DNA of 62,467 nucleotides, filler included, from Dugesia japonica (Eukaryota): the NCBI GenBank assembly GCA_001938525.1. It is 5 parts of 5 records of this genome, joined end to end, with 100 filler letters (N's around TTAATTAATTAA, not from the genome) between each part and the next. Parts side by side here need not be neighbours in the genome. Positions count along the whole stretch, not along the records: positions 1 to 11,959 come from MQRL01597750.1; positions 12,060 to 26,208 come from MQRL01343855.1; positions 26,309 to 34,969 come from MQRL01540293.1; positions 35,070 to 53,979 come from MQRL01607045.1; positions 54,080 to 62,467 come from MQRL01639829.1. One strand, 5' to 3'. Numbering within the stretch: the first letter of the stretch is position 1; each line of letters starts with the position of its first letter. Below, one piece after another: positions 3,061 through 59,739 of the stretch. The notes beneath the pieces are model-generated. The model did no database searches. It was not told the origin of the DNA and was given only the letters and a program-made list of their open reading frames with translations. A program made the translations under genes and the position numbers.

Positions 3061-3764
3061 AATTAGTGGAATTTTGTATAGCACAAAAAGGGATTTCAAA
3101 TAATATTTATTTTTCTAAAATAAAATAGTTCGGTTTAGTAAACTACAATTTAAAAAAAAATTAAATTAAGGAAAATTATAATACAACCTAATATTACTTA
3201 GCAGCATTTGGATATTTTTTGTTTTCATTAAAATGGCGAAATTGTGTTATAATTTAATAGCATAAAGTTCAAAATTGACTCCAACTTTATTTGACAATTT
3301 TTAATTTATTTAAATTATTTACACCTCATAAATTGTGCCTGCATAAATCTGCTAGCTAAATACAGTTGATTTCCAACTTTAATAATACAATAAACAACAA
3401 TGCAATATAATTTACATGTATTTCGATTAATAGAGCTTAGTCTATAATGTTAAAATAATTACAAGGAAATTTATCCAAAAACTAAAGATAACGGTCTTCA
3501 TCGTTGGAATATTTGTAAAATGAAAAAAAGTGATTAATAAAAATATTTGAAATATAATTAAATCAATTTTCAAATTCCTTTACGAATTTGAGATTGATAT
3601 CCTATGTATTTTTAAATTTAGTTCAAGTGTTAGACAATTTAAGATCGGGTAAACCGAATTAAATTAAATAAACTATTAAATTTCAAAAAAATAATTATAT
3701 ATATATTATAACACGAGGAAAATAATAAAAAATACCTTAATTAATTAAGAATATAATCAATAAA

Positions 3765-3892
3765 GTCAAAATATCGAATTAATCTCAAAAANNNNNNNNN
3801 NNNNNNNNNNNNNNNNNNNNNNNNNNNNNNNNNNNNNNNNNNNNNNNNNNNNNNNNNNNNNNNNNNNNNNNNNNAATAATTGCAATTGTAAA
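3765..3892 (+). mobile_element. Hammerhead/tail element copy F (5'-truncated, partly in gap)
   Basis: Starts GTCAAAATATCGAATT and ends aataattgcaattgtaa. Flanked by ataatcaataaa at 3753-3764 and 3893-3904. Confidence 0.6.
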
Positions 3893-4079
3893 ATAATCAA
3901 TAAAATTAACATTCTGTATTAATATCGCTTTTATAGCGATTTCCTTAAAATCAGTTAATCAAACCATTGAAAGCTCCATTAATTATGTATGATTAGTGCT
4001 GTCAGGTATGCAAACTAAGTTTCCAATAACTAAATTATGGAGATTATTTTGCAATTAAAGATTATTTATAAATTATAGA

Positions 4080-4460
4080 TTTTAAATTATGGTTCGATCG
4101 TAAAACCACAGTTAAAGCAGATTCATTTCAAAAATTTCTAATTGAATACGATATTGAATTATATCATACAAAAGGAACTCTTTGTCATACAACGGGTTTT
4201 AGAGAAAAATCCGTATTTGTATAAAGATTTAACAGAACATTGAAAAATAAAATGTGGAAATTATTTATAAAACAAGGATTTAAAGTAAGGAATGTTGATA
4301 TTTTAAATGATTTGATAAATAATTATAATAATGCAATTCATTCAGAAATTAACATAACTCTAAATAAAACATCTTTTAATCCAGAAAACGTTTTAAGTCA
4401 ATAAATACTTTAACCAAATTTAAAGGTAAATTTGAAAATGGTGATTATGTTTATCTCAGG
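4080..4460 (+). mobile_element. Decayed Maverick/Polinton-type retroviral-like integrase
   Basis: LWFD...FQKFLIEYDIELYHT...EKSVFV*RFNRTLKNKMWK...DILNDLINNYNNAIHSEI...KFENGDYVYL matches the Polinton integrase motif series (ERFNRTLKxKMWK, YNNxxHS, KFxVGD). Confidence 0.75.
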
Positions 4461-4474
4461 AACAAAGACATAAA

Positions 4475-5060
4475 GTGAGTCTTTCAGAAGTTATGAGATG
4501 GCAGAATGAGAGAAAAGGGGGGTTTATAAATTTGATTGATCAATCACGGCAACACCTGAGACAGCTGGTACAACTGACGGAAAACGAAAGGGTCACGACT
4601 CTGGAACTAGAAGAGTATAAGAAACAGGCGGATAGACTAATGTCAAGGATTGAGATTACCTTATAACAAATCCAGCCGTCGATGGAAGAGGATTGTGTAA
4701 AAAGAACTGATGTATGAACTCATTGATGTTTGTGTGTTAAGGAACCAATATATTTTACTGAATTTTGTGTTACTATTTAATTAGATTAAAGTAATGAAAG
4801 CAAATCATCAACGAAAAAAACAAACATCAGCCAGAAAAGAAATAGAAATTCAAAGACAGGATACAGCATAGTCCCGCATATGCTCGGGGTAGATGGAACA
4901 ATGTATAAGGCATTGTCAAATTTCTGCCGGCTTCGGGATATCTACCCCTAGAAGATATTAATATGGTAACAACATAAAGAAGGAACAGAAGAATAACAAG
5001 GAGAAAGTGTCAATTAGAAAGCAACATTGAAAACTTTGTAGCCAAGCACATATATTAATT
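4475..5060 (+). pseudogene. Two-ORF cassette 1 (coiled-coil ORF plus KTGY ORF), decayed
   Basis: ORF-A 4475-4716 has an in-frame TAA at 4664. ORF-B from about 4853 reads KTGYSIVPHMLG...FCRLRDIYP*KIL. Confidence 0.4.
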
Positions 5061-12511: not shown

Positions 12512-12730
12512 AATTTCATTAAATTAAAAGCATCGATCTAAATATTGTTTTTTTTATAAATTATTGTTTAGTTGTTAATAGTATTTTGACTTTGTCTTCG
12601 TCAGGGATTGACTTCAACTAAAAAAATATATATAAAAAAAAACAATATTTTATTCGAAACTTTTAAATTGATTAAATCTTAAATACGATCAATGGTTAAG
12701 TCTAACATTTATTCTCTCAATAATTCTTGT
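12512..12730 (+). mobile_element. Hammerhead/tail element copy A (5' inversion, ribozyme core in the inverted arm)
   Basis: Inverted arms. The minus strand reads CTGACGA-A-GAC(aaa)GTC-AAAA. Tail cgatcaatggttaagtc is present. Degenerate TSD at 12497-12511/12731-12745 (13/15 match). Confidence 0.7.
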
Positions 12731-12837
12731 AATAGTAAAAAAATATTCAGTTAATAATATGGATTGAGTTTAATATTTCTTTGTGAAAATGAACATTTTC
12801 AAATTTATAAAAAGTAAATAAAAACAACTCTTCGAGT

Positions 12838-12918
12838 ACAAATCGAGTTTATTGATTTGGACAAATCGCGTTTATTGATTTGGACAAATCGAGTTTATTG
12901 ATTTGGACAAATCGAGTT
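12838..12918. repeat. 23-bp tandem repeat, about 3.5 copies
   Basis: Unit acaaatcgagtttattgatttgg. Confidence 0.9.
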
Positions 12919-13564: not shown

Positions 13565-15451
13565 TTTGAAAAAGTTTCTAATCAATTGCGGGATTGCGAC
13601 CGGAAATTCCGTGAATTGATTAGTGAAAAGGATGATCTCGATGAAACAATGAAAGTAAAAGAGCAAAAGCTGTCTGTGTTACAATCGGAACTTCAAATGG
13701 TAAATGCTAGAAAGTCGGATTTATCTTCGGTATTTCATATTAAAAATGAATTACACTGAATTATCAATTGTTAGACGGCAGAGGCAAATATAATCAGTGA
13801 TAATAGAAATAAAATAATTTTGCTTGAACAAGAATTGATAGTTAAAGGTGAAATGTTAGAAAAACTCGAAGCAGACAAGTTGAATTGGCAGAATAGTATG
13901 GATGATGCTAAAATAAAATTGGTTGGTTTATTGAATTAATCTTTGATATTTTTATACTATTTAATTATATTAATTAATTAATTTGAATTGATTAATTTAG
14001 CGGGAATATTTTCAACAATTTATCGATATTTCACAATTTATTGATTAATTTAGCGGGCATATTTTCAACAATTTATCGATATTTCACAATTTATTGATTA
14101 ATTTAGCGGGNNNNNNNNNNNNNNNNNNNNNNNNNNNNNNNNNNNNNNNNNNNNNNNNNNNNNNNNNNNNNNNNNNNNNNNNNNNNNNNNNNNNNNNNNN
14201 NNNNNNNNNNNNNNNNNNNNNNNNNNNNNNNNNNNNNNNNNNNNNNNNNNNNNNNNNNNNNNNNNNNNNNNNNNNNNNNNNNNNNNNNNNNNNNNNNNNN
14301 NNNNNNNNNNNNNNNNNNNNNNNNNNNNNNNNNNNNNTTTATCGATATTTCACAATTTATTGATTAATTTAGCGGGCATTTTTTCAACAATTTATCGATA
14401 TTTCACAATTTATTGATTAATTAGCGGGCATATTTTCAACAATTTATCGATATTTCACAATTTATTGATTAATTTTATTAATTTGAGAATACACAGAATT
14501 TGTGTAAAATTTTTAAATTTTTGAGAATTGTTAATAAATAAAATTATTTTTAATAAACTTTCACAATTTGATAATAAAAATTTTACACAATGGAGAATAT
14601 CATATATATAGAGACATAAGAACTAATAGATTTGTGTGATGCATTTTCATTGGTGTGCGTTTTTTGTTTTTGATTCTGTTAATACTGATGAGAGGAAATA
14701 CTCGAAAGGTGCCCATTAATGGATTGTACATATTCTATTGATTCATTCAGGTACATCTGTCTCGTAATTCAGTGGTGGACATGATTACTACTTCTCGTTT
14801 TGTTGTTCGGAAACAGTAACGAGTTGATTTGTTTGTAAATCTAGGTAAACCAAATTGTCGTTTTCTCATCATTTTATTAAAAATTTTTATTATTACTAAT
14901 TTCCGGTAAAACTTTAATATTAACATTCTTCTGAATAATTCTGCACTCGAGAGTGGATGATGTGTTCTATTTCGATCGCTCAATATTTCTAATAAGTGTT
15001 CAGTTTAGTGAAACATTATTGATTATCAGAGAATCTTACTCTATTAAATGGCATCTTGTGCTTTAGAAATATCGGAACAACAAAATTTGAATATGTGGAA
15101 TTCTTCCACTCTTCAAACATAATTTTCAATTTTGATCGTTACTCTGATTATGCTAACTATTTCAAGTTCTATTATACTTTCAAGCTTAAAAATGTTTTTT
15201 ATTTTATAAATATAAAATGTAAATTTTAACGTAATTAATAATAATCAATAATAATAATAATCAATGATAATAATCAATAATAATAATAATCAATAATAAT
15301 AATAATCAATGATAATAATCAATAATAATAATCAATAATAATAATCAATAATAATAATAATCAATAATAATTATAATCAATGATAATAATCAATAATAAT
15401 AATCAATAATAATAATCAATAATAATAATTATTATAATAATAATCAATAAT

Positions 15452-15487
<36 letters not shown>

Positions 15488-18400
15488 CAATAATAATAGT
15501 TATTATAATAATAATAATGATCAATAATAATAACCAATAATAATTATAANNNNNNNNNNNNNNNNNNNNNNNNNNNNNNNNNNNNNNNNNNNNNNNNNNN
15601 NNNNNNNNNNNNNNNNNNNNNNNNNNNNNNNNNNNNNNNNNNNNNNNNNNNNNNNNNNNNNNNNNNNNNNNNNNNNNNNNNNNNNNNNNNNNNNNNNNNN
15701 NNNNATAATACTGTCAAATATTGATTAGTAATTTTAATTAGCTTGATTCTTCTACATAATTTTCATCGGATATATTCTATTTTCATTTATTAACAGTTCT
15801 AGACACTCATCAGGCGTCATCATAAAATAAATTTAATAGTCTATACAGAGTCGATAACTTTGTCCGATAATCCAGTGTTTATTATTTTAGATAAATTTTT
15901 TGGAAAAATTCACTATTAAACATTTATTGAATTTTTTAATTGAATAGGCGCAAACAATAAACAATTATGAGAAATTGCGGGTAGATGATAGACGTCGCAT
16001 CGATATGCTGACTGAAAAACTTGATGTTGCTAAACAAAAAGCAAACTCTATCCAAAAAGATCTGACAGAATATAAAGTAAAAGCTGCTAATATTCTTCAA
16101 ATGAAAGAAAAGGTAATTAAAATATGAATTATTTTTTCGTTATTCGAGTTTTTAATAATGTAAATTGATTTTTTGGCTATAATTCTCCCAGGAGTTGAGT
16201 TAATGGAATATATATATATATATAACAGAGAATCCATTTCGATATTTAATAATATTTATCATAATTGTTGTATTCGATGAATTAATAAGGACTGCTGGAA
16301 TTTATCTAGTCAGTTATGATGGTATTTATGGATTATTTCTCGGGTAAATAAGTGCTATTATAGTAATTATGTTTATGTATCGATCCTATTACAAATATTT
16401 GGGTTATTTTGCTACACATTTTTACTGTCAAGCCTTAATAACACAACATTCTGGTAACATCGTTTCTTTAATACGTCTTCAATTGTTTTCAGATTGCCTG
16501 TTTTTTTTTTTTACGAGTGTTACATTTACTAATAATAACAATAATCAATAATGATAATCACTAATAATAATAATTAATAATAATCAATAATTATCGATAG
16601 TGATAATTAATAATAATAATCAATAATGATAATTAATAATGATAATCAAAAAAATAATCAATAATGATAATAATAATAATTATTATTGTTGATAATAATA
16701 ATTAATAATTATTGTCGATAATAATAATTAATAATCAATAAAAATAATCAATAATAATAATAATAATCAATAATGATAATCAGTAATAATAATATATAAT
16801 AATCAATAATAAAATCAATTTCATTAAAATAAGAAAAACTTTCGATCAAAATAAAATTTCTTTGTAAAAAGATTCAAATTTTCGACATTAGTCTTCTTCG
16901 GGAACATGTTGGCTTCTTGAGATACTCAATGCAATAGATCTTTGTTACTCAATTCTTTAAATTTTATCGAAATTTTATTGGTTAATTTTTTTTAATTAAT
17001 ACAGAAAAGTCTTTTAGATATTTTAGAAATATTATACTAAGTATATTATATCTAAGTATAATATATCTAAAAGACTTTTCTGTATTAATTAAAAAAAATT
17101 TTTGAAATTTTTTGAGTTTAGTTGATTTAAAAATAAAAATTAAAATCATTAAAATTAAAAGTTTAAAAAAATTAACCAATAAAATTTCGATAAAATTTAA
17201 AGAATTTGTTAACAAAGATCTATTGTATTGAATATCTCAAGAAGCCAACATATTCCTGAAGAAGACTATTGTCGAAAATTTGAACTTTTTTGCAAATAAA
17301 TTTTGTTTTGATCGAAGCTTTTACTTATTTTAATGAAATCTCAAATGCGATCAATGGTTAAGTCCAACAATTATTTTCACAATAATTGTAAATATATAAT
17401 AAAATCAATAATTAATAAAATTATTTATTTATAAATTCATTTATTTATAAGTTTTATAAAACAATAAATTATTCTTAGTTTTATTATTAATCGATTTTCG
17501 TGATTTTAAAAGTATTTGTATTGCTATTTTAAAAAAATTATATTTTATTTAGTGGTAATTTTTTAAATTTATTTATATAAAATTTTACTAGTGAATATTT
17601 ATTTGTGTAATTGTGGCTGCGTAAATAGAATTTCAGTAATTGTTAATCACCAAAGTGAAGATAAATCATATGTTCTATTTAGTAAAAATTGATGTTGATG
17701 ATTAAAGGGGATAATTCTTTTTCATGGGTTTGTACATTCTGCAGCATTAAATTTTATTCTTATTTAACTTATTTTACAAATATTCAACTCGTGTCATATG
17801 GATTTCAAATAGCGTTTCATTGGTTATTGCCAAGTGAAATTATTTTGTCATAAAACTAAAATATCTACAATTATGCATGTTTTCAAGTGGCACATTAAAA
17901 TTGTTTATAAGAATACATTTTGTGAGATTGATTTCCTTTAACTGAACAAATAAAACTAAATAATTATAATGAATTGTAGACTTTATTGAAAAAATCATTT
18001 ATGTTAATCTACGAATTTCTTTCGCCCACGAAAAATTCTTAATTTATATATTGATATATTAGTAAATAAGGAACATTTTACCTGGTTTCTTTTTTCTTTT
18101 TGATATTCATTTAGGTAATTGCCAGTCTTAAAGGAAACGGTGAAAGAATTGATGATAAATATTCTTATGGATCGTACTCTGAAGATTTGCAACAAGAATT
18201 ATCTAACATGCGCCATGAATGTGATTTGCTAAGGGAAGAAGTGGCCAGATGTCGTGTTGAATCGGAGCATAAAGATTTTGATTTACAGGAATTAGATCAT
18301 CAAATGCACACTGAAACAGAATCGTTACGAAAAAATCTCGATCTTATGGAAGAGCAATTAGAACGTGAAAGACAAGTCAGTTTTTTTTAGTTCACTTGAT

Positions 18401-21400
18401 TTAATTTTCATCTGACTTTATCACCTTATCAAGAGTGTTTCCTTACTTTATAATCATATTAACAATAAATTTATTATAAAACAATAATATCATTAACTGA
18501 ATAAAATATATTATAAATACATTTCAGAATTTTACAAAATCTTCTCTAGATTTATGAAAATTATTTTCAATATCTCTTATTTTTCATGAATAACGAACAA
18601 GAAAACATTGAAAATGACATTATTTGTCATGGAAATTGATCATTTGGTTGTTCAAATAAAATATTAGAAAGATTAAGTGTATGTGTGTGTGTTAAGTTAT
18701 TTCAGAAGTTCGTTGATTAAAAAAGTAACAATGCATAGAGATTATTTCAAGCGAAACGGGAACGTAAAATAAACCACAAAACTGCGTTTCGTATAGTAAA
18801 TTCTTAATACAGAATATTTACAGCTAAAGTTTCTAATGAGAACATCAAAAATATAAATGAGGAAATGATTTATTTAGTGAAATAAAGAATATGAAGTCAA
18901 AATGGTGTGAAATTTCTAGGGAAAATCCGAATTACAATGGAAAAGCATTTATTGATTGATAGGATGAACAATGTTGTTTGGGTTGAACTAATACGAGAAT
19001 ATATACCATATATTTTGTGATCAATTTCTTAGTAGATGATTGAAAAAATTGATTTGTTGATGAATCCGGATTTGATCTTTATCCGAGGAGTACCAGAGAA
19101 GTGAACGAATTTGTGTTGTAGTCCAAACAATAAGTTGTGTGGATATTACATTATTGACTACGATAAATGACTGTTGTGTGGTTCATTATTCAGAAACATT
19201 TCCAGGAATTGGACGAAGTTTTAATATAAGAGATGGAACAATTGTTTGATAATGTCAGTTTGTCATTTATCTTCATTATATAAAATTACAATAGCATGAG
19301 TAGTTAATATTATAATTATAGTTTGTGGCAAAATTATTCTGCACAGTTTTATTTGCGAATCACTTATATTTCATATTTTCAATGCATTTTAATCATGTTT
19401 AAAATAAATTTCATATTTAACTTGAAATATTTATCAGAATTTTTACTTTTTGTACAAAATATTTTGTGGAAAAATTAAACTGGATACTTATAGAAAATTC
19501 ATTGAAATAAAAGCTTCGATCGAAATTTGTTTTAGATCGAAGCTTTTATTTTAATGAATTTTAAAAAACGATCAATGGTTACGATTGTCCAACAATTATT
19601 CTCGCCTCAATAATTGTAATTGTGAAACTTATAGAAAAATTGGATGTAAACTGCATCATGAACCTTTTTCACCAATTCATTTGTATTTTTCGGTGGTTCA
19701 TCAGAATAAATTAAATCTGAAATTAATTTCCATACGTTCTCACGATTTCGTGGACTACTCAAAAACTAAAATGTTTTCGATTGCCATTCAACGTCTAACA
19801 ATGTTAGCAGTATGAATCCTGCTATTGTCTTGTACGATAAAGAAATTGCTATCACTCTTTGACTTCTTAAGTGGTAAAAGATGCTTACTAAGAATATCTA
19901 TATATTGAGGAGATTTATAAACTTTTTGGATTTGAGCCACAAATATGAGTCTATTTGACATTTGACATTCCCGAAACCATTGACGTCATTTTGGGGGACA
20001 TAGGGGGGCTGCTGTTCTCTAAATTTAGAATTAGTATGAATTTATACAATAGTATAATTTACATTTGTTACCATTGATCACTGGAAGTGAACCAATGATC
20101 AAAATACCAAATATAATTGGTTATTAGAATTCTATTGACATAGAATTATTGGTTAGAAAATATCCTTTTCAAATATATAAAAGAGATATTTTAAATAAAA
20201 AATGTCTAAAAAATTTTCTACTTGTAAATCCTAAATTTATCAATAATTGAGAATTAAATATTTTCATAAACAAATATTATACCTAAATTAGAAATAATCC
20301 TGTATTCTATTACCATATCATATATGTATTGATATGTCGATCTTAATTTCCCAATAATAAGGAAAAATATTTTTTCGTTTATTTAAATATTGAAAAAACA
20401 CAAGTATTTTATATTAGAAAGCATTGAAAACAAAATTTTTCCACCGTTGCATTTTCTTTAAATTTTTAAGTTTGGCGGCCCATATGTACAGCTGTAATAA
20501 TAAGTATTAATGAGATAACAGTGTATTCCTAGTGAGAATTATTTATAATTAAAACATAGAAATTATCTGGACAATCTAGAGAGAACATTTTTTTCGTCAC
20601 TGAAGAAAGTATAGATCCAGTTTCGCTTCTTGCATAATAAAATTCTAATTTTCTTTTCATTTAAATTTTTTCACGGTGTTTTTTTATTTTAATTGCCAAA
20701 TCTTTAATTATTAACTGGAAATTTACTTTTTTACTGGAAAATTTTTTTTGTTTATAGGTTTCTTTGGTTCAGGTTTCATTTTTATATTCTTGTATTTATG
20801 AGATAATATAAATCCAAACTAGATTTTTCCATTTTCATTGGGATTGCAATTTTTCTTATGGAATAACCAGCTTGTGATAATTTCTTCACATCATATCGGA
20901 ATATATTTCGAAAACAATTAAATTTTAAAAATTCACCAAAATATTAAGTGTCAAATGTAATTGTCCCTTCAAAATTTCCAAATAATATAATAAATAGAAA
21001 ACAACTTATTTTAAAGACTATTAAAAATGAAGTATAATTATTATTTAAATACGAATGAAAAGTGTATTCCCGGTGAGAATTATAGAACTAAAACTCTCAA
21101 GAATAATTTAGCAACAACTATAAATTATCCTTATATTAATTCTCTTAATACTCTTAATTCTTTTGAATTTTACTTTGAAAAGTGATATTAATTGTATAAA
21201 AGTTATTATCTGAAAATCAAAATAATTTATGCCTTCAAAATTCACTGAGATTGCAGTTTGATTAATTACGAAAGATTATTTAGAAAGTTGGTTTATTACT
21301 ATTAATGTATGATTATCAAAACACCTTTAAAACTCAATATTAAAATAAATGAAAAACAATTCATTCAAATATTAATTAAAATTTCTTATAACTATACATT

Positions 21401-23495: not shown

Positions 23496-23699
23496 GTAAG
23501 TAGTGAAGTAATTTGTGTTGAATTAACTATTTCTATTCATCAAAAGAAGTTCTTTATATATAAGTTTAAAATAAATATCTAAATCAGTTCATCTTTTAGG
23601 TTTTTCAAATTAAAAGTTTGTTTTTTAAAAAACTTTAAATTTATTTATACAAATATCTTAAAGAAGTCAATCAAATTTATGTTTGCTATTTTTATCTAC

Positions 23700-25060
23700 A
23701 TCTTCCCAATATTTCCCCCAGATTTCGATACCATCCCTATATCAGACACTCAGTTTTAAATTGATAAGCCGAGTTATCGTGTTATTTTGCCAAACATTTT
23801 GTTCTCAAGGAAATATTGAAGAGATCTGAATAAATATTATCTAGCCTAACCTCTTGATGATGGAAAATTATTTTGTTACTATTGATCAAAGCATGCCTTT
23901 TTACAATTAGTGCCTCTCTCATAGAAAAAACGGTTAAGAATATCACATTAGAGCTCTGAGTTTATTGTCTGACCCATTTCCAGCAATTCCAAATGAATTA
24001 CTCCTTGATTATCCCAGAAAACACTCAATAATACCTTTGGATGAAGTCCTCATTTGGACATTGGCATTGGAGTTTGTCCTGGAGATAGCCTTTGGTCTTT
24101 ATGTGAATTGTTATGTATTATCCATTTTTCTCTACAATCACAATCCATTTGAAGAATGCTTCATTTAGATCTCTATTGACTAGTTAATGGTATATCTGGG
24201 CTCACGAGGAACCGAAATACCGTACCTATTTCTTTTCAGGATCTTTTTATTGTGGTTCCATACACTATTGACATTACTCTGTTGTAGAACAGATAATTCT
24301 TGTAATGCTTGTTTTGGGTCTCTTTCGATAATGGCATTGAACACATCATTATCCGCCACAGATTGTCAATGCCCGTTCGGCTTTTTATCCACACTAAGAC
24401 TGACAGTACGAAATCTGTCGAACCATTTTTACAATTGTATTACTATTGTTATCAATTGTTATCAGAAACACTCGTTGACAGTTGACTATTTAAACCAATA
24501 ACACTAATTTTAATAACATTAAATTTAAAAAATCGGTCAAAATATTGTTTTTATTTTATTTTATATTTGTATTTTTAGTTCTTGATAGTATTTCTAATGT
24601 TCTACTTTGTTTTTGCCAAGAATTGACTTTTCACGAGATTCTGGAAACCTCTCTCTATTAAAACAACATCTTCCAAATATTTCATTGATGTCATTGGTTT
24701 TGGTCTCATCGTCTATATTCTATCTTCCGTCATCACTGCTTGGGTGTTCTTCTTTTTACTGGCGAATTATTTATACGTTCTTTCTGTCTATCCTCTTCCA
24801 CTCTGTTTATGTATGGTTTCACTACATTTCCATAACTCATCTTTTTTTGGTATCATACAGATATCTTCCTTATCTGTGATTCGTGGATAATGTTCCTTAT
24901 CCTTGTAAATCTGCGATCTTGATATCAGAACGTGTCGTTAATGTTTCTATCAAGTTTTATTTTTCACTTTGAGAGTACGTCATTAACTGTTTTATCTTTA
25001 CTTAATCCTTAGTATTTCTATCCGGTAACATTATCTATCCGATTTCTTAATCTCATTTCG
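23700..25060 (-). mobile_element. Highly decayed LINE (RTE-like) RT remnants
   Basis: Residual IKR.VR..I.SDLFNI.L and LINL..SDI motifs; purine-rich minus strand. Confidence 0.35.
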
Positions 25061-26094: not shown

Positions 26095-26208
26095 GATTTC
26101 ACATTTGAAATGATTATTTACCATTTTGGAATGATTATTTACCATTTGGAATGATTATTTCACATTTGAAATGATTATTTACCATTTTGGAATGATTATT
26201 TACCATTT
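26095..26208. repeat. ~20-bp composite tandem repeat at scaffold end
   Basis: gaatgattatttaccatttt variants. Confidence 0.85.
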
Positions 26209-28029: not shown

Positions 28030-29125
28030 TGACGTGAGCCATCCACCAATCTGGAGCGAGCACATAGGAATCCTTGCGGTGATCAGATTAACATTTCGTC
28101 GATCATCCTCTGTTAAATCTTCTAAGTCGGGAACCGTTGCAATTGAATTTATGATAAATTAATTACCTTTATAATTTCAGTTAATGATTTGATTAAATTT
28201 TCACTTCAAATTTTTTTGATTGATTTTCTTCTGAAATTGAAAAGGTATTAATATTAATTTGCCTTTACGCCCCCATTATTCCTATTGGCTAAGGGGCAGC
28301 GTTTGATCCTTCTATCGTTCTTATTAGCTAGATTGTCATTTAATTTTTTCTTATTGACCAAAATTCTGGAATTTCAAAATTACTAAAACCCTTGCAACTT
28401 TTTTCTTGGTCTAGCTACGATTTTCTAACTTAAATTTTCAAAATTACAGATTTTTTCTTGAATAGAATTTTCTGAAACACTAATCTCTTTCCTACAGGAA
28501 AGTTCTCGTTTTGCAATATTTTCATATAAATTTAATTTATTTTTATAATAAATCATTTTAATTTGTCCGATTTATTTTATTGAAAAAAATACTTATTTAT
28601 TTTCTTTTCTTTTTAATTTATTAATTACATTGATATTTTTTATTTCTAAGCCGAAATTTTATCTAATTTTCATGTTCTTCAATAATTAATTTATTTCCTG
28701 TATGTTAATTATTAATTTCATTCGATTTTCTTTCATTTAGTGAATTACTTTCTTTGATTATTTTTTGTCCTTTCTTTTTTTATCAGTCTGTTTGGGTCTT
28801 CTATTCCTTTTCTTCTTTGGTGACTCAAGAATTTATTGATCATTTTCTATGTTTCGCTCCCTAATCCTGTTTTTTTCTTTAATTATTCCTTTCATTAACT
28901 GGTCTTTAACCTTCTATTTTTCGTGTTCTTTGTTTATTTTTCGCGTATCACCCTCCTTGATTTTGGCCTTACATATCGCCATTATTAACTTCTCATATTG
29001 AGTGTTTCACACAACAATTTTTTAAAGTGATGATTTTAGGGGGTGTATTGATGACCTATCTACTTACTAGATTGTTCTTCATTTTTCGATATGAAGAAAG
29101 CATTTTTGGCCATAAGTTCTCTACC
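28030..29125 (-). repeat. Triple-CCAAT repeat family copy (K-rich ORF end, spacer, promoter-like block, ORF start)
   Basis: Colinear similarity to 44100-44790, 44885-45100, 45110-45480 and 46110-46765. Confidence 0.65.
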
Positions 29126-33616: not shown

Positions 33617-33617
33617 A

Positions 33618-33866: not shown

Positions 33867-33869
33867 GAT

Positions 33870-34187
33870 CATAGGTTCCCAACCATTTTTGGGTGGCGAC
33901 CCCTTTTCATAAAATCCATGCGACCCGCGACCCCCATACAATCCGAAAGCCATTTATGAATAAAGTAATTAAAAAAACGACGAAAAAAAATTTTTTGTTA
34001 GTATAATTTTATTTTAAATTATGTATGTTTAATAATTAATTTAATCATTAAAATTTAATGCGATAGTTGAAATTGCATATTGTCAACCAGTCTCAAAATT
34101 CGTGGATGAGTTTTGGTTAACGCCAACTTCGTGTCATGTTCAACATTTAATTGGTTTCTTACTTTTGTTTTTAAATGAAGAAGAGTT
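33870..34187 (-). mobile_element. hAT Buster/Charlie 3' end (duplicated at 34652-34969)
   Basis: KTKVRNQLNVEHD.KLAL...QLSH*; terminus cataggttcccaac. Confidence 0.8.
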
Positions 34188-35069: not shown

Positions 35070-35143
35070 GAGTTTCAATTGAGAGTTGCAATTGAGAGTT
35101 TCAATTGAGAGTTGCAATTGAGAGTTTCAATTGAGAGTTTCAA
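35070..35143. repeat. 13-bp tandem repeat
   Basis: gagtt(t/g)caattga, about 5.5 copies. Confidence 0.9.
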
Positions 35144-35722: not shown

Positions 35723-36489
35723 TTCTTTTTTAACAAATTCTTGCATAAATAATCTTTATTTTAACATGGCGCACGGTGTTTTCTACATGATAATCTACTT
35801 CCAATTTTTAAAAAATTTCTTCATATAAGCCAAATCTATAATATAATTTTCCACGCACAGGAAAAGTTAAAAATCAAATAATTTCTAAAAGCAATTCCTT
35901 TTTTTGTATTTATTGCTTGAACAAAAACACAAAATAATAAATTAATAGTAAAAAATCGAATCCTCCGTTTATAGTGTTGTCCGATATAACAACACCGAAT
36001 ATTAGTACTACTTTAAGGATAAATTAAAAATGTAAATTTTATTTTGATAAATTTTATAATATTTTAACATGTTGAGTGCCGCAATGTTAAAAAAATATAC
36101 TCTTAGAGACACCACATTTTGCTTTTAATTCACTCAAAATGAAGTCAAAAATAATATTGCATCGATTTTCATTTATTTTTGTGTTTATTTATATCTTTCA
36201 ATTGTGAATTACCTGTGCACCACGCGGCCTAGAACAAANNNNNNNNNNNNNNNNNNNNNNNNNNNNNNNNNNNNNNNNNNNNNNNNNNNNNNNNATAAAA
36301 ATTGGGTAAAATAATGTTTAATAGAAGACTGGTTCTATAAGCAATATGTCCATAGAAGAATCGTACAAAAATGAAAATTGTTAGAGTAGCAAATTAGATA
36401 ATTTAATCAATATTCCAGATTACATGCAGTTTAAATCTATGCACATTTTATTTTACACAATTTTTTTAACAAGCTATTTTTTATTTTAG

Positions 36490-36565
36490 TTCATCCTAGA
36501 TTGGGTACATCCGATCTCGATCGACCTCGGAAGTTAAACAGCACTGGGCTTCGTTATTATTATAA
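36490..36565 (+). pseudogene. 5S rRNA-derived fragment (pseudogene or SINE3-like head)
   Basis: ccgatctcgatcgacctcggaagttaaacagcactgggcttcgttattatt parallels 5S CCGATCTCGTCTGATCTCGGAAGCTAAGCAGGGTCGGGCCTGGTTAGTACT. The 3' third diverges. Confidence 0.75.
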
Positions 36566-36859
36566 CGTGAGCGGTGTCGACTGAGCTTGTTTGGTATTTG
36601 GTTAGAGATAACCTTACATATTTCCAGTACAAGAAAGAGCTTACCACCTTGAACCTGGACTCTTACGAATTTGATGCAGAACGTGTTAGTTCTTTCAACT
36701 TCTCNNNTAGGAGTCTTTGTCTTTAATATTTGAAGCTTTTCAGAACAGATCTTGTCCTGTTATGTCATACCTTAGACAACACATTTATACAACTTAGTAA
36801 TGGGATTTCTTCGGTTTGCTTAATTGTTTATCGGCATATTTATCGCGGCGTGTTTAATA

Positions 36860-44099: not shown

Positions 44100-46765
44100 C
44101 ACTTTAAAAAAGAATAAGGAAAAATAAATTAAATTAATAATTAAAGATATAAGAAATAAATGAAACGAATTATTTATGAAAAGAAATGCTTAAATTAAAT
44201 AAAAAATTTAGCGTGGAAACGAAAAATGACAATTTAATTAATAAATTAATTAGAAACAAAATTAACAATAAATTTTTTAAAATAAAATAAATCATACAAA
44301 TTAAAATGATTTCTCAAAACGAAATTAATTCTATGAAAAAAAGAAAAGAAAAGAACAAAAGCAGAAGCGAATAAGAAAATTATGGTACAAAAACTCTTCA
44401 TATATTTCGAAAATTTAAGCTAGAATATCACAGCTCAGTCAAGAAGAAAGTTACATGTGATTAAGGACAAACAATTTGATTTTATCAGTTTTGAAATTCC
44501 AAAAAACTAGCCAATAAGAAGAATTTGTGTGATACGTAATTAGAAACGCGGCCAATAGAAGTTGTTAAAAAATTAAATGACGCTAATGAGCCAATAAGAA
44601 GAATGGGGCGTTCCAGAAGAGCTCTGTAAATACCACTGCCATTTTCACGAAAAGTCAATCTTAGAAAAATTCAATTTTGAATTAAATTCAAAGTTAAAAG
44701 AGTAATTGATTGAAATTACAAAATGTTCAACGGTTACGGATTTCGAGTTGAACATAAGAAGTTAGAAAAAGAAAATGGGAAGGCGTCCATGGATAGATTT
44801 TTCGTAATGCCTCTCAAAATATGTTACAAAAAATAATAATGATTGTTAGGAGTTTAAAAATAATCCCCTATTTATAATTATCTCTTACATCCCCATTCTT
44901 CTTTTTGGTAAATTAGCATCGTTCAATTTTTCTACAGCTCTCACAGGCTAAGTTATTCACGCCTTATTAAGTGATTTCTTCACATTGGTCAATGTTTTGG
45001 AATTCCAAAGCTGATGGGATTCAATTGACTATCTTTAAAGCCACTGTAATTTCTTTCTAGATTAAGCTATGATTTTCTAGCTTGAAATTTAAAAATCTAC
45101 GACGTTGTTGGAGTAGAACACCTGATATAGGAAGATAATAATAGTGTTACAATTGCAATTATTTCGAGAATAATTGTTGAACGTAACCATTGATCGTTTT
45201 TTAGAATTCATTTAAAATAAAAACTTCAATCAAAATTTGTTTTTTTGGTTTTATGATACCAATTCGATATTTCGACTTTGTCTCATTAAACCAAAAAAAA
45301 CAAATTTTGATCGAAGCTTTTATTTTAAATGAATAATAATAGTGATAGGTAAAGTCGAAATTGAAGAGGATATTATGAGAAATGGAAATGAAGAATCCCG
45401 AAAATGTAAGTTCAAAGACCAGTTAAAGAAAGTCATAATTAGAGAAAAATCAAGATTAGGGAATCAAAACACGGAATGTTCAGTTCATTTGAGTTTTGAT
45501 TAGTAATGTTAATGAAATATTTTTTTACTGTATTCAATGAATATTAGTAATATAATTTTCTTTTACGAATTCTTTTTCTTTAATAAGTAAAGATTTTATA
45601 ATTGAATAATGTTGAATTAATGGCAATCTTGTTAATATTAATAATTAGTAATGATTAATTGAATTGTTAGTAACAAATTATTGTTGTAATATTTAATTAT
45701 TGTTTTTGATATCCGTAATGATTTATAATAATGATTTCTAATCGTAAAATCAAGACGTTACGACATTAATAAGAGGAAAATAATAGAATTACATCTCTTT
45801 TTAAAGTAATCAATACTAAATAACCTCTCAGTAGCGACTTTTAAATTTTCAAAGGCGATAATAATAATGATAGGCTGTGACAATGATAGCGCTAAGATAT
45901 AACGATTAAAATTCAGAAACGCTGCCACCATCGTCAGTGACTAATAAAGCAATAAGGGTTAAGTGTGCCTCATAAAGTAAAGCGAGTATTATGAAACGTG
46001 AATCCAAACCAAAGGAATGCGAAAATACTCTCAAACTACAGGTACGAGTCACTGGCTCCATTCTGAAAATCTAGAGAGGGGACACTAGATTGAATTCCTC
46101 GCCGGATTTTACTAGGCTAGACTATCTTAGACATAACTTAAAATTGAGCTACTTAGATGAAATTCCAACAACGTTTTCTTGACATATTTTTCTTATCCGC
46201 TGCTTTTTTCTTTATGGAAAGTCTTTGACTTTTTGTAAATTTAATTTCGTTTTATAATAAATCATTTTAATTTGCATTATTTATTTTATTTAATAAATTA
46301 ATTTTATTTTTTTATTTTCCTTTCAAATTTATTTATTAATTATAGTGCTAATTTTTGTTTCCAATCTGATATTTAACTTAATTTGAGCGTTTCTTTCCAT
46401 AAATTGTTCATTTAATTTATTTCTTCCCTTTTTAATTATTAATTTAATTCAATTTTCTTTGTTATTCTTAATAAATTATTTGCTCCAGTTATTATTTGAC
46501 GTTTTGTTTGATTTCTCAGTCTGCTGGTCTTTTTTTGTCATTTTCTTTCTTTTTTTAGTTTTCTTCTTTCAAAGTTGTTTCCTTTTTGTTTTACTAGTTA
46601 TTGCCTGTTTTATTCCTTGGTTTTCCTTGAATTACTTCTTTCTTTAACTAATCTTTGACCTCCTGTTTACTGGATTATTTATTTCTCTGTCTGATATCCT
46701 CTTCTTCGATTTCACCTCTACCTATCGCTATAATTATCTTTTATACTAGGTGTTCTACCCCAAAT
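44100..46765. repeat. Cluster of triple-CCAAT family fragments in both orientations
   Basis: gccaat at 44510, 44551 and 44590, followed by ggggcg. An inverted copy lies at 44885-45100. K-rich ORF ends lie at 45110-45480 (+) and 46480-46765 (-). Confidence 0.65.
45147..45332 (-). mobile_element. Hammerhead/tail element copy D
   Basis: The minus strand reads GAC(aaa)GTC-GAA-ATAT-C-GAATTGG. Inverted arms and tail are present. Perfect TSD ataataatagtg at 45135-45146/45333-45344. Confidence 0.9.
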
Positions 46766-47238
46766 TATTTATTTTTTAAATATGTACATTTATTTTTCAA
46801 ATTTATACGTTTATTTATGAAATCCCTGTAGATTCGAGAACCCATGTAAATATTTACACCATAAACAAATATAAAAATTTGCATTTAAATTACAAAAAAA
46901 CAGGAATTCAAACTCAGTATAGATAGTTATTGTTAATTTTTTGATTCACTAGGTAGATTTCGACATTTCTATGTTCATTAAACAACATTTTTATTTAAAT
47001 TATTTTAATTCACTAGAATATTTTATTTAAAATTATTTAGTAATTAATAATTAATGATAATTTTAAAGATGTAATTTGATTCAAAATCTGAAAATACCTT
47101 ACAGTATAATGGAAGCAATTAAACATTCTTCAAAAAAATGTTTATTGGTTATTAAACCTATTATAATTAAAATTCGTTTGAATAATACAAATTAATTAAA
47201 ATTATTTGAAGCCTAAAATTTTTTATTAATATTACAAT

Positions 47239-51585: not shown

Positions 51586-51878
51586 CAGTGACGTAACTAA
51601 AATTTCCGGCGCCCCGGAAAATTGATAAACCTTAACCTCTTCTCACTCTTAACAATTTTTATCTCAATTTTTACAATCATTTTTTCATAATCAAATTTAA
51701 TTAAAAAATGAAAAAATCTGAAAGAAATTATCAATAATTCGTCAAAATTGAAAACTCTGATGAAATGAAAGTTTACAATTATTGCGAGAATAATTGATGG
51801 ATTTCACTATTTATAGCATTTTTAATAAATAACAAATTTGGTGCTCCAAGAAATTGCCACTATCTAGCTACGCAACTG
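51586..51878. mobile_element. hAT-type MITE
   Basis: TIRs cagtgacgtaacta / tagctacgcaactg; degenerate 8-bp TSD attggtgc/attaatgt. Confidence 0.7.
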
Positions 51879-52259
51879 ATTAATGTTGCTTATATACTCC
51901 TGTTTTAATGAAATAGTTCAAGAACATTTTGTTGGTTGTTAGAGAAAAATATTTTATTATATTCTAAAATTCAAGAGAAACGAGTTTACTATGGAATAAA
52001 TGATTTGTTAAAATCTNTTGCTAACAGTCCAAACCTAGATTGAAAAATCCAATAATATTTAATTCAATGAAATGTTATTAACTCTGAACTACCAATTCTA
52101 TCATTTTAAAAAATTTCAGAATCTTCTTTTTAAATGAATGATTCAATGAAATATGATCTAAACCAATAGGTTAAATAACTGACATTATCAAAAATCTGGT
52201 AACTTNNNNNNNNNNNNNNNNNNNNNNNNNNNNNNNNNNNNNNNNNNNNNNNNNNTTAC

Positions 52260-56282: not shown

Positions 56283-57246
56283 TCAATAGGTTTTGTGAAG
56301 AAAAGACTTTAGATACAAATCTTTTATATTTACTCTTTCATTTGGATCTCTTTTCAAACAAGAATTTATGAATGATTTCATATCATCGCTACTATTTGAT
56401 GGATAATCAAATTTCACCTGTCCAGCTAGAATATTTGGCACAATTTTACCAATAGATAAACCTGCATGAGGACGCTTCCCTAAATTATTCATAAAGAAAT
56501 AATTTGTTTCAAATTATTTTCATACTTGTTATTATTTCCACCATGGTAGCACCAAATGACCAAATATCACTAGCAGGTCCACATAGTTCATCATTGATTA
56601 TTTCTGGACTCATCCAATTGAGAGTGNNNNNNNNNNNNNNNNNNNNNNNNNNNNNNNNNNNNNNNNNNNNNNNNNNNNNNNNNNNNNNNNNNNNNNNNCA
56701 ACAATATGTTATCTCCTATCAAATATCAACATTATTATGTCAAATAATATTGATTTACCTTTAAGATCTCTGTGCAATATTCTATTATCATGAAGATATT
56801 CCAAACCTTCCAATATTTGTCTAGCATATCTAGCAATTTTGGATTCAGGAAGAGGATCATTATGTTTCACAAAATATCCAAGGCTACCCTGTAAATCAAT
56901 ATAATTATTTTGACTTTTGATTAATTTTATTAATTACTCTATTCATATATTCCATGAAAATATACGATTTGTGATTTTCCATGAAATGTTCTTCATATTT
57001 AATAATTTTAGGATGAGACTTCAATTTGAGATAGCAATCAACTTCTATTTGAAATTTTTTTTTTACAGACGATTTTTTGGACAAATCAAATTTTTTCAAT
57101 GCAAATATTTCATTTGTATTTTTATTTCTATATTTATACACCGTCCCAAATGAACCTTTACCAAGCGTTTTAATTTTCTCAAATTCGTCAAGTCTATAAA
57201 TTGAACATTATTTTTTCTACCCTTGTAAAATTTCTGTTGAATGCAT
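56283..57246 (-). CDS. Compact STE11/MAP3K-like Ser/Thr kinase (~265 aa); exons 57246-57221, 57193-56938, 56888-56759, 56715-56526, 56479-56283
   Basis: [58 protein letters not shown]. The DFG region falls in an N gap. Introns are 27, 49, 43 and 46 nt. Confidence 0.85.
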
Positions 57247-57871
57247 ATCAAATTTCAAATAATTTATATATTTTGTTATTAACAACATATTTCAATATAG
57301 CCTTACACCTCTTGGAATGAGTGCGAACGTAATGGAAGTGGGAATTTCATATTAATTTAAATTTTCATTGTTTTACTTAATTTGTAGTTATAAATAATAA
57401 GTTTATATTACTAAAAGAAACAATATTTCCTAGTAGAAATGAAGACAAAAAAAGTTTATAATAATTGAGTAAATGCATGTATTGCAAAACATTATACGGA
57501 TTATAAACAAGATTATCCGTTTAAATCTGATTCTGAAACAGCTAGAGAATAAAACATTCCAATTACAAAATAAAACATATCATTGAGAGATTTTACGAAA
57601 TGTATTAGTAAAACATAACAATGGAATAATTAAAAATGGAGGTACATAGTAATATAATTTTAAAAAAATATAAAATGTAAAAATTACTTGTTAACATAAT
57701 TAATATTGAAAAAAGATTAAAAATGTTAACGTTATTTATCTCTTTTAATTATTGTTGGATCGATGATAATCCGTACAAAATGGCATATAATGAAAATGTC
57801 GAAATCATAAAACCAACAAAACATCGTATTATCATAATATAATCAACATACTCATATATTACAAGGATATA

Positions 57872-59200
57872 CAGTCCGTTTCAAAAGTCTGTTTGCACCC
57901 ATGTAAATTACAAAAATTACAGAAAAGTCGTTTGAAAAACCAATGGAAAAAGAAAAAACATATTTACAAACGATAATAAATTTATTAATATTTTGTTGAG
58001 TATCCTTTCATCTTGATAATAGAGAACACTCTACGTGGCATGGAATCAACGAGTCTGCGAAATAAGTAATTTGGTATATTATACCATATCTTTTGTAACT
58101 GCGTCCTCATTTCATCAGCATTCAGAGGTCCCAAGGCATTCATTTTGATCTTTATGAAATGCCAGCAAATTTTCAATTAGATTGGCATCAGGAGAATTCG
58201 CAGGCCAATTTAATATATTGATTTGACGTTCACTGAGAAAAGATAATATTGATGCAGATCGATGGCAAGAAGCATTGTCGTGCTGCAATATGAACCTACG
58301 CAGAGGGAAGACCAAGCACTTGTCAACTAGATCGATGTCATTGACAATCTTGTTTTGATAGGTTGCAGAATTCAACGTACTTTGTATTAATTTCAAAATT
58401 CCTACACCGAATCGTGAAAAGCATCCCCAAACATGAATTTGCACACCATCTTGAATAACTTTCTTAGTACAAATATGATTTAATCTTTCATGTTGAAACC
58501 CCCTTATTCTTTCGAAGCGACTATAACTATATGAGCAAAACATGGATTCATCACCGAAGACAACATTTGCTCATTTATCAACGTCCCATAGCTGTTTAGA
58601 TATCGCCCATTGCAATCTTCTTTTCCTTTGCTTATCATTGACCAACGGCTTGCTAACATCCGGATGACTTCTTAATCCGTACTTTTTGAGCATGCGGTAA
58701 ACTGTCCATCTGGAAACATGTTGAATGCTACCCATGTTACAAGTACATGCTATTTCCGTTAACGACATGCTTCTATTTTTCAGGCATACGCATCGAATAA
58801 ATCTGTGACCGTATTGATAATTTAAGTGGTCTTCCACTACATTTCCGATCCACATAGATTTCTTTGGTCTCATATTTATGGACAATTTTTTGAAGGCCAC
58901 GCTTTGGCACATCAATATGATGCCTGTCCGTCATTATTTGCTTAATTGGACAAGTACTATACCCTTCCATCATCAATTCCACAATTATTATTCTGTGCTT
59001 CATCACGACGTTTTGATTATTCATTATATCTAAAATGTGTCATATAATATTAAATACATTTAATATAAGTTGATAACATTTTTAAAAAAATTATTTACTA
59101 TATTTTGCAATTTACATTACTTAAAAAAATTGAAATAAATTTAAAATACGTATCGACTTATGAATTTACATGGGTGCGAACAGACCTTTGAAATGGACTA
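57872..59200 (-). mobile_element. Full-length Tc1 (DD34E) element, frameshifted
   Basis: ~38-bp TIRs cagtccgtttcaaaag.../...ctttgaaatggacta with TA flanks. FGDES, QHDNA and NLIE motifs with 34 aa between D and E. Confidence 0.95.
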
Positions 59201-59629
59201 TACGTGTTTGAATGATTAACTGACAAAAGTTTATAGTTCGGAAAAATAGCGGCTCTCTGGATCACCTCCACCAGTAAAGTGAGTTAGAAATAGGCGAAAA
59301 CTGTAGCCAGTTTCGATTTTGTGCATTTTTATTCCCGGCGAAAATTAGGTAATCAGTATGCTATACCATTTTAGCGATGCAAAATATTACATAACTTCTG
59401 CTCATATTTTTCTGTGCCTATTTCGATTTATTTTAGTATTTCAATTATTCAAGTTTGTATTTTAAGTTTTTAATTTGGCGATTAATTTTTGTTTAATTGC
59501 TTTACATTTATATAGAAATTTGTTTTTTGTTTTATAATATTAAATTAGTTTATTTTATTTGCACAATTTTGAATTTTTGAAATTTTAATAAATTTAGTAG
59601 AGAAAAAAATTTAGTAATTGAAAAAAGTC

Positions 59630-59664
59630 AATTCCTGACAAAGACGAAGTCGAAAATTCGAATT
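59630..59664 (+). ncRNA. Minimal type I hammerhead (family copy E)
   Basis: AATTC-CTGACAA-A-GAC(gaa)GTC-GAA-AATT-C-GAATT; perfect stems, with G8 changed to A. Confidence 0.75.
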
Positions 59665-59739
59665 ATTATCAAAAACATAAAAATTTGATCGAAGATTTTA
59701 TTTAATTGTAAATTTAGAAAAAATTTCCGAAATTTATTA

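What the first reader, a model, noticed from the sequence alone, without database searches (positions are those of the whole stretch)
3753..59715. Dispersed non-coding mobile element: hammerhead, variable 5' fold-back, constant hairpin tail, 12-15-bp TSDs
Seen: at least six copies occur on four of the five scaffolds (3765, 12512, 16820, 19498, 45147 minus, 59630). They share ...gatcgaagcttttattttaatgaa, then a ~60-nt tail (cgatcaatggtta..caACAATTATTctcgcAATAATTGTaa) ending in a 9-bp hairpin. Four copies begin with an inverted copy of the body that starts at the same point just before the tail but varies in length (~25 to ~170 bp). Five copies have 12-15-bp flanking direct repeats. Known: an inverted 5' segment, a 3' tail and minimal hammerheads are hallmarks of Penelope-like element pLTRs. 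Inference: this is a high-copy, non-autonomous, ribozyme-bearing PLE derivative (retrozyme-like) that inserts by target-primed reverse transcription with fold-back priming.
Basis: partly seen in the sequence, partly recalled or inferred. Interest (0 to 1): 0.8.

Follow-up and report, generated by a model that had tools for sequence, protein, structure and literature searches.

The report
Truncated ends of a Penelope retrotransposon
These short scattered repeats are real insertions that look like the cut-off ends of a known kind of jumping gene (Penelope-like retrotransposons), so they are ordinary in kind, though their mirrored halves could help test how such elements start copying themselves.

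Summary
The family is real: 8 loci on 4 of 5 scaffolds (the six reported plus two diverged ones). Four of 8 have exact 12-14 bp target-site duplications. For one, two paralogous empty sites in the window hold the target once, so the duplication arose on insertion; this counts against a Helentron/HINE. Four of 8 carry a head-to-head inverted arm (27-220 nt) whose outer end is nearly fixed about 60 nt from the 3' end. A minimal type-I hammerhead with a 2-nt palindromic loop III is visible, but only one copy keeps an intact core, Rfam does not detect it, and covariation is inconclusive. All of this is the published anatomy of 5'-truncated Penelope-like element (PLE) ends. A second, coding PLE family lies in the window, but no ORF could be tied to this family. 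'Retrozyme-like' fails: no tandems, and no 5' end at the cleavage site. 'Non-autonomous' is untested. Pure fold-back priming does not explain copy B without a further deletion; priming from both nicks at two RNA sites fits all four inverted copies. New member of a known kind.

The parts
3753..3904 (+). Copy A: 5'-truncated, no inverted arm; element 3765-3892 (83-N gap inside); 12-bp TSD at 3753-3764 and 3893-3904; starts 11 nt upstream of the predicted cleavage site
12512..12740 (+). Copy B: old copy; inverted arm 12512-~12617 carries the hammerhead region, forward arm from ~12617 does not; decayed tail; no TSD found
16806..17409 (+). Copy C: ~520-nt fold-back (inverted arm 16820-17039, palindromic centre ~17040, forward arm 17041-17337), 58-nt tail 17338-17395, 14-bp TSD 16806-16819 and 17396-17409, at the end of an AAT-type satellite
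17251..17286 (+). Minimal type-I hammerhead in C forward arm: intact CUGANGA and GAAA boxes, one bulged base, 3-bp stem II, 2-nt palindromic loop III, 3-bp stem I; predicted cleavage after 17281
   Evidence: not detected by Rfam
16871..16906 (-). Same hammerhead in C inverted arm (one core change), about 355 nt from the first and on the opposite strand
19486..19638 (+). Copy D: inverted arm 19498-~19524/19533, forward arm to 19558, 68-nt tail 19559-19626, 12-bp TSD 19486-19497 and 19627-19638; no hammerhead
24429..24645 (-). Copy H (not in the finding): diverged forward copy with decayed hammerhead (U3-A8 core variant) and tail, at the edge of a mariner remnant; left boundary unresolved
45135..45344 (-). 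Copy E: inverted arm 45332-45283, junction inside the hammerhead's quasi-palindrome, 60-nt tail 45206-45147, 12-bp TSD 45344-45333 and 45146-45135
46616..46781 (+). Paralogous empty site for copy E: both flanks contiguous, target present once (about 46726-46737)
28860..29026 (+). Second paralogous empty site for copy E (weaker on the downstream side)
51771..51826 (-). Copy G (not in the finding): tail and hairpin only; upstream sequence unrelated
59613..59717 (+). Copy F: hammerhead (59630-59664, G8 changed to A) and body, tail absent; 9-bp flanking repeat only; abuts a PLE ORF remnant
59820..60740 (+). Context, second family: decayed, internally deleted PLE ORF (RT start and GIY-YIG endonuclease); its 3' end (hammerhead-like motif at ~60829) is not of this family
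61690..62400 (-). Context, second family: PLE endonuclease remnant followed by a minimal hammerhead at 61714

Best explanation
The repeats are insertions of the 3' terminal repeat (pLTR) of one endonuclease-bearing Penelope-like retrotransposon family, most of them cut short at the 5' end. The RNA strand is the one that carries the hammerhead and ends in the tail. Shown here: staggered target cleavage 12-14 nt apart (TSDs, empty sites), variable 5' ends, a fixed 3' end, and a second nearly fixed point about 58-68 nt inside it where every inverted arm begins. Inferred: a PLE RT/GIY-YIG protein nicks AT-rich DNA on both strands; one nick primes cDNA at the 3' hairpin, the other at the inner site, and the two short cDNAs are joined head to head at a palindrome or microhomology, giving inverted arm, forward arm and one-sided tail; where only the first nick primes, a plain truncated copy results (A). 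The hammerhead is a passenger of the pLTR in these copies and does not set their ends. PLE machinery: about 0.85. Source a full-length coding element rather than a dedicated short non-coding master: about 60:40. Two-nick priming rather than fold-back: about 55:45.
For: TSDs exact in 4 of 8 loci, chance 0.0003-0.007 window-wide; two empty paralogues hold E's target once. Inverted arms in 4 of 8 with outer ends compatible with one position and 2-4 nt matches to the TSD end. Arms of one copy are each other's closest relatives in C, D, E (90-91% against 70-78% between these copies) and share private indels. Minimal hammerhead with bulge before stem II, G-C first pair, palindromic loop III, the features listed in PMC4209133 (parts 1-2 of 4 read), which also reports solitary motifs and opposite-strand pairs 100-700 bp apart as probable truncated PLEs; C has such a pair about 355 nt apart. 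Inverted 5'-truncated copy plus one-sided tail is described in PMC8557442 and PMC3846280 (passages). PMC11167929 (parts 1-3 of 4): PLE protein cleaves and extends both strands, starts RT at two internal sites that delimit the tail, and does not need hammerhead cleavage. Coding PLE remnants in the same window show the machinery has been in this genome.
Against: No ORF is tied to this family: sequence upstream of H gave 0 hits, no match to 129 PLE proteins or their profile and a frameshift-tolerant score within the null; the ORF next to F ends in a different 3' repeat (z 1.3), and the N-terminal motif match at F's 3' end is weak (about 0.04). The tail (58-68 nt) is longer than the 30-40 nt in print. 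Rfam finds no hammerhead; no two-sided change in stems I or II among 7 sequences; hairpin folding z-scores -1.5 to +0.8. B, F, G, H lack a convincing TSD. C's two arms end at the same upstream point, which fold-back explains more simply.
Confidence: 0.68

Rival explanations
1. A dedicated short non-coding element (SINE-like, a few hundred nt) that keeps the pLTR and is mobilised in trans by a PLE protein; the first reader's 'non-autonomous' reading without the retrozyme part.
For: 0 of 8 copies reach coding sequence, whereas 2 of 2 copies of the second family do. C has at least 210 nt of AT-rich non-coding sequence upstream of the hammerhead against about 90 nt in the second family. Both arms of C end at one upstream point. 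Non-autonomous PLE partners are described in Chlamydomonas (PMC8557442 passage).
Against: 5' ends differ in every copy and no shared 5' boundary is seen; PLE copies are usually 5'-truncated (PMC8969392 passage). In 2 of 4 copies examined the tail reads open from an ATG, as expected if it is the start of an ORF, but D is frameshifted and B has no ATG.
Confidence: 0.3
2. Same element, but the inversion forms by fold-back: the first cDNA loops onto itself at a palindrome, copies itself back, and is resolved at the inner site by the endonuclease.
For: C has a perfect hairpin centre with both arms reaching the same point; E's junction lies in the hammerhead's quasi-palindrome and its inverted arm is contained in the forward arm. 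Self-priming and endonuclease resolution are proposed in PMC3846280 (Discussion) and PMC8557442.
Against: B's inverted arm holds about 46 nt (the hammerhead) absent from its forward arm, and its forward arm holds the tail, so neither arm can be a copy of the other without a later deletion. D is ambiguous. B is old (11 of 53 mismatches) and C shows that arm deletions occur, so B is not decisive.
Confidence: 0.4
3. Non-autonomous Helentron (HINE/DINE-1-like): subterminal inverted repeats at the 5' end and 38-60 bp from the 3' end, with a 3' stem-loop, moved by rolling circle.
For: The layout matches closely: inverted repeat at the 5' terminus and about 60 nt from the 3' end, small palindrome near the 3' end (PMC4067079 passages).
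Against: HINEs show no target modification and insert in TT (PMC4067079 section 6); here 12-14 bp duplications occur and E's empty paralogues hold the target once. Inverted arms vary 27-220 nt and A has none. Hammerhead motif present.
Confidence: 0.04
4. Non-LTR retrozyme: hammerhead-delimited monomer RNA, circularised and reinserted.
For: Type-I hammerhead, low GC, TSDs longer than 4 bp (PMC7229834 passages); retrozymes are argued to derive from PLE pLTRs and dispersed monomers exist (bioRxiv 10.64898/2026.07.22.740005, parts 1-3 of 5).
Against: No tandem units among 8 loci; no copy starts or ends at the cleavage site; motif is the minimal PLE type, not canonical; a master tandem elsewhere in the genome could not be checked.
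Confidence: 0.05
5. The fold-backs are assembly artefacts of a short-read draft.
For: The draft is gappy and palindromes are hard to assemble (PMC8557442 passage).
Against: Arms differ by 6-21%, start at one position in four copies on two scaffolds, and are bounded by TSDs confirmed at an empty site.
Confidence: 0.02

Closest known systems
pLTR ends of endonuclease-bearing Penelope-like elements (Penelope/Poseidon, Neptune; e.g. Adineta vaga Pen2/Pen2a, Anolis Poseidon_Ac, Schistosoma Cercyon)
   Same: 5' truncation, head-to-head inverted arm with palindrome at the junction, one-sided 3' tail, AT-rich targets, TSDs near 8-10 bp in A. vaga, minimal type-I hammerhead near the 3' end, opposite-strand hammerhead pairs.
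   Different: No ORF linked here; tail 58-68 nt against 30-40 nt; TSD 12-14 bp; stem II only 3 bp against 6-8 bp in Schistosoma and D. virilis; whole insertions only 130-580 nt.
Drosophila virilis-type PLE hammerhead with a 2-nt palindromic insertion in helix III (PMC4209133)
   Same: 2-nt self-complementary loop III (AU in C, F, H; UA in E, A), bulged base before stem II, predicted dimer-only cleavage.
   Different: Shorter stem II, 3-5 bp stem I; activity untested; most copies have core changes.
Non-LTR retrozymes (PMC7229834; bioRxiv 10.64898/2026.07.22.740005)
   Same: Short, non-coding, low GC, type-I hammerhead, probable PLE origin.
   Different: Not tandem; ends not set by the ribozyme; inverted arm and tail are not retrozyme features.
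HINE / DINE-1 non-autonomous Helentrons (PMC4067079)
   Same: Asymmetric inverted repeat plus 3' stem-loop.
   Different: True TSDs, variable arm length, no TT target, hammerhead.

Membership tests
Endonuclease-bearing Penelope-like element | ORF with PLE RT and GIY-YIG endonuclease joined to this terminal repeat | tested here: inconclusive
   No link found in the window; copies are too short to reach it; rest of genome not available
Endonuclease-bearing Penelope-like element | Variable 5' truncation with fixed 3' end | tested here: met
   3' ends fall at two positions about 6 nt apart
Endonuclease-bearing Penelope-like element | Inverted 5' arm, head to head, with one-sided tail | tested here: met
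   4 of 8 loci; tail longer than the published 30-40 nt
Endonuclease-bearing Penelope-like element | Target-site duplication | tested here: met
   4 of 8 exact 12-14 bp; empty paralogues for E
Endonuclease-bearing Penelope-like element | Minimal type-I hammerhead in the terminal repeat | tested here: inconclusive
   Motif and pairing present; Rfam negative; covariation limited to the C3-G8 pair and loop III
Endonuclease-bearing Penelope-like element | Partial tandem (direct pLTRs flanking an ORF) | tested here: inconclusive
   Not seen in the window; F abuts an ORF remnant whose 3' repeat differs
Endonuclease-bearing Penelope-like element | RT initiation at two internal RNA sites; protein-assisted cleavage | not testable with these tools
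   Needs RNA data or in vitro assay
Non-LTR retrozyme | Head-to-tail tandem units, each with a hammerhead | tested here: not met
   0 of 8 loci; window only
Non-LTR retrozyme | Unit ends at the ribozyme cleavage site | tested here: not met
   A and E start 11 and about 18 nt upstream, B and D downstream, C, F, H far upstream
Non-LTR retrozyme | Monomeric linear and circular RNA | not testable with these tools
   No RNA data
HINE / Helentron | No target-site modification; TT target | tested here: not met
   against PMC4067079 section 6
HINE / Helentron | Fixed 12-15 bp subterminal inverted repeats | tested here: not met
   Arms 27-220 nt, absent in A
HINE / Helentron | 3' stem-loop | tested here: met
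   (47 of 52 cells paired, one two-sided change, not above shuffles)
MITE / TIR DNA transposon | Symmetric terminal inverted repeats | tested here: not met
   Tail on one side only in 4 of 4 inverted copies

The most novel reading that the evidence does not exclude
A very abundant (about one per 7.5 kb here) short non-coding PLE partner whose insertions record double target priming: a dimeric PLE protein starts two cDNAs, one from each nick, at two fixed RNA sites about 60 nt apart, and joins them head to head. If so, one genome would hold thousands of natural junctions that decide between self-priming and two-nick priming, an open point in PLE biology, and enough hammerheads to test selection on a 3-bp-stem-II, dimer-only ribozyme.
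Probability: 0.2. Interest if true: 0.6.

Novelty: new member of a known kind. Interest (0 to 1): 0.3.

Why it matters
As a kind it is known: truncated PLE ends with inverted arm, tail and minimal hammerhead are in print. The value is practical and mechanistic. Such copies are easily misfiled as Helentron/HINE or MITE; the empty-site result shows why that would be wrong. How PLEs make head-to-head inversions and one-sided tails is still unsettled (self-priming and endonuclease resolution in PMC3846280 and PMC8557442; two RT start sites and both-strand extension in PMC11167929). A dense family of 130-580 nt insertions with clean TSDs makes that question countable genome-wide. In my 8 literature searches I saw no paper testing arm asymmetry in this way; subscription papers and Repbase/Dfam were not searchable, so the family itself may already be catalogued.

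Tried and rejected
Rfam scan of the window: no hammerhead. By-eye reading of the sequence upstream of H as a decayed GIY-YIG domain: rejected as unsupported (0 hits; none; score 15.1 bits against null top 17.8). Alternative by-eye reading of the same flank as a mariner N-terminus with an 18-bp decayed TSD: also unsupported (null 176 of 3000). F as the 5' pLTR of the ORF at 59820-60740: not supported, since that ORF's 3' end resembles the second family (z 3.5) and not F (z 1.3); a weak motif match remains. Tail as ORF start: open from ATG in 2 of 4 copies; N-termini of related proteins are too variable to test it. Idea that TSDs are too well kept for the arm divergence: joint chance 0.052, dropped. 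Monomer folds do not form the hammerhead and are no more stable than shuffles. Empty-site search succeeded for 1 of 8 loci. The paper on dimeric PLE hammerheads (PMC5785218) was not held; I saw it only as cited in PMC6765202 (passages). Pfam scan of all six frames of the window was not obtained; a PLE profile was run over all six frames instead. Host taxon was not determined. Supplements of the 2026 preprint were not visible and may list related families.


Full report
Setting. The window is an AT-rich (about 28% GC) eukaryotic draft of five scaffolds joined by N-spacers, with host exons (golgin A5, OSGEP/TsaD, WASH-4, kinases) among decayed DNA transposons and retroelements. The host taxon was not determined.

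The repeat is real. Self-BLAST links the six reported places. A nucleotide profile built from 7 arms gives 11 matches at E<1e-4, 7 of them its training set; the reversed window gives nothing better than E 0.65. Two further loci belong: H (24429-~24645 minus, diverged) and G (51771-51826 minus, tail only). That makes 8 loci in 60,375 called bases on 4 of 5 scaffolds. A's middle is an 83-N gap and F has no tail, so 'all share body and tail' is too strong.

Target-site duplications. Exact flanking repeats are 12 (A), 14 (C), 12 (D), 12 (E), 9 (F), 8 (H, at a distant and uncertain left boundary), 7 (G) and 6 (B) bp; window-wide chance for the first four is 0.0003-0.007, but C sits at the end of an AAT-type satellite and is weak locally (0.064). 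The strongest result is for E, which inserted into an older repeat: two paralogues (46616-46781 and 28860-29026) show both flanks contiguous with the target present once (2 of 4655 random windows scored as well for the downstream flank). The duplication was therefore made on insertion. This was possible for 1 of 8 loci.

Inverted arms. B, C, D and E begin with a reverse-complement copy of the body, about 106, 220, 27-36 and 50 nt long. C is a single ~520-nt fold-back with a 73-nt deletion in the inverted arm. In C, D and E the outer end lies 4-5 nt past the A of an ATG in the forward body, and the end of the TSD matches 2-4 further template bases; B, which has no TSD, is compatible with the same point. 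The remaining 58-68 nt form a tail on the 3' side only, in 4 of 4. Arms differ at 19 of 218 (C), 2 of 27 (D), 3 of 49 (E) and 11 of 53 (B) positions. In the shared core the two arms of C, D and E are 90-91% alike against 70-78% between these copies, and share private indels; B's arms are only 70% alike. Junctions: C has a perfect hairpin centre with both arms reaching the same point; E joins inside the hammerhead's quasi-palindrome with the forward arm longer; D can be read either way; in B the inverted arm carries about 46 nt, including the hammerhead, that the forward arm lacks.

Hammerhead. Rfam gives none (6 matches at E<=1). By hand the motif is a minimal type I: 3-5 bp stem I, CUGANGA, one bulged A, 3-bp stem II, GAAA, a 2-nt loop making a self-complementary 4-mer, then UH. 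A descriptor finds one zero-mismatch site on both strands of the window, in C; 0.365 are expected per window and 0.010 in the family's footprint. The descriptor was written after seeing the motif; with one mismatch it gives 14 sites, of which three are the family motif (C forward, C inverted, F) and one is the second family's. On 7 aligned sequences 49 of 56 cells pair; two positions change on both sides (C3-G8 to U3-A8 in H, a variant reported in PMC4209133, and loop III AU to UA in E and A); none does in stems I or II, and the pair count is not above shuffles (185 of 500). So the motif is plausible and the covariation test inconclusive. Only C's forward arm keeps an intact core. No copy starts at the cleavage site. 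The tail hairpin pairs in 47 of 52 cells with one two-sided change, not above shuffles, and folds no better than shuffled sequence.

Search for the motor. A GIY-YIG-like stretch at 62013-62192 minus retrieved 13 proteins, and one of them 2881, of which 120 were listed; they carry RT and GIY-YIG domains. Their profile finds two decayed ORFs in the window, 59820-60740 plus and 62400-61805 minus, and nothing else at iE below 0.2 in 834 six-frame segments. Each is followed by a hammerhead-like motif, and their 3' ends resemble each other (z 3.5) and not this family (F against them z 1.3 and 0.7). F lies directly 5' of the first ORF; a weak N-terminal motif match at its 3' end leaves open that F is its 5' repeat, but an independent insertion is at least as likely. 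Sequence upstream of H looked coding by eye but failed every test. PLEs are thus present in this genome, but the partner ORF of this family is not identified.

Mechanism. Shown: staggered cleavage, variable 5' ends, fixed 3' end, fixed inner point. Taken from print: PLE insertions are 5'-truncated, often with an inverted copy and a one-sided 30-40 bp tail (PMC8557442, PMC3846280, PMC8969392; passages); solitary minimal hammerheads and opposite-strand pairs 100-700 bp apart are read as truncated PLEs (PMC4209133, parts 1-2); a purified PLE protein cuts and extends both strands of AT-rich DNA, starts RT at two internal sites bounding the tail, is predicted to be a dimer and does not need ribozyme cleavage (PMC11167929, parts 1-3). 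Inferred: the bottom-strand nick primes at the tail end and the top-strand nick at the inner site, which gives exactly TSD, inverted arm, forward arm, tail, TSD. Two cDNAs of the same polarity can anneal only at a palindrome or microhomology, so the centres of C and E fit this model as well as fold-back, and B fits it without an extra event. Fold-back (self-priming, PMC3846280 Discussion) explains C most simply and needs a later deletion in B, which is plausible for an old palindrome. Four copies cannot decide; I put it at about 55:45.

Comparison. It works like the terminal repeat of an endonuclease-bearing PLE; membership lacks the defining ORF link. It is not a retrozyme by the definition in use (tandem units each with a hammerhead; PMC7229834 passages; bioRxiv 10.64898/2026.07.22.740005 parts 1-3), though that preprint argues retrozymes come from such repeats. 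It mimics HINE/DINE-1 in layout but fails on target modification and arm length. Differences from described PLE ends are of degree: longer tail, 12-14 bp TSD, 3-bp stem II.

Verdict. Observation partly confirmed, interpretation partly supported. New member of a known kind; interest 0.3. The most novel reading still open, a dense non-coding PLE partner recording two-nick priming, has probability about 0.2.

Noticed in passing
window 59820-60930 (+) and 62467-61600 (-): Two convergent decayed copies of a second, coding PLE family, each followed by its own minimal hammerhead-like motif (about 60829 + and 61714 -); in the second an ATG at the start of stem II opens a short frame, as described for Poseidon_Ac.
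   Followed up: partly
window 1711-2025: Near-perfect palindrome with 147-nt arms (94%) and no spacer around a TA-rich centre; unrelated to this family; Rfam miRNA matches there are below gathering score. Possibly a MITE or fold-back element.
   Followed up: no
window 36483-36588 (+): 5S rRNA-like sequence just below the Rfam gathering score (35.6 against 38 bits); pseudogene or 5S-derived SINE head.
   Followed up: no
3' ends of copies A, D, E against C, F, G: The 3' end falls at two positions about 6 nt apart, with one or two copies of an AATTGY unit; alternative RT starts or reiterative copying.
   Followed up: no
window 17029-17070: Centre of fold-back C lies in a 15-bp tandem of 2.9 copies; could be captured flank or slippage at the junction.
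   Followed up: partly
window 28383-29026, 44107-44523, 45020-45460, 46252-46781: An older dispersed repeat in several copies; E inserted into one of them. Its class was not identified.
   Followed up: partly
window 18115-18387 and 23154-23579 (+): Exons of a golgin A5-like gene; copy D lies between them and copy C just upstream, so they are probably intronic.
   Followed up: no
window 15232-15549, 16530-16819, 13987-14475, 12838-12918, 26102-26208, 35070-35143: Satellite-like arrays of 13, 52-53, 23, 20-21 and 13 bp units; copy C inserted at the end of one.
   Followed up: no
window 33461-34093 and 34238-34875: About 630-nt, 97-98% identical direct duplication split by an N gap; may be an assembly overlap.
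   Followed up: no
window 51826-51912 (-): Upstream of G's tail is about 85 nt unrelated to the family, with a possible 11-12 bp flanking repeat broken by an indel; could be another element sharing the tail.
   Followed up: no
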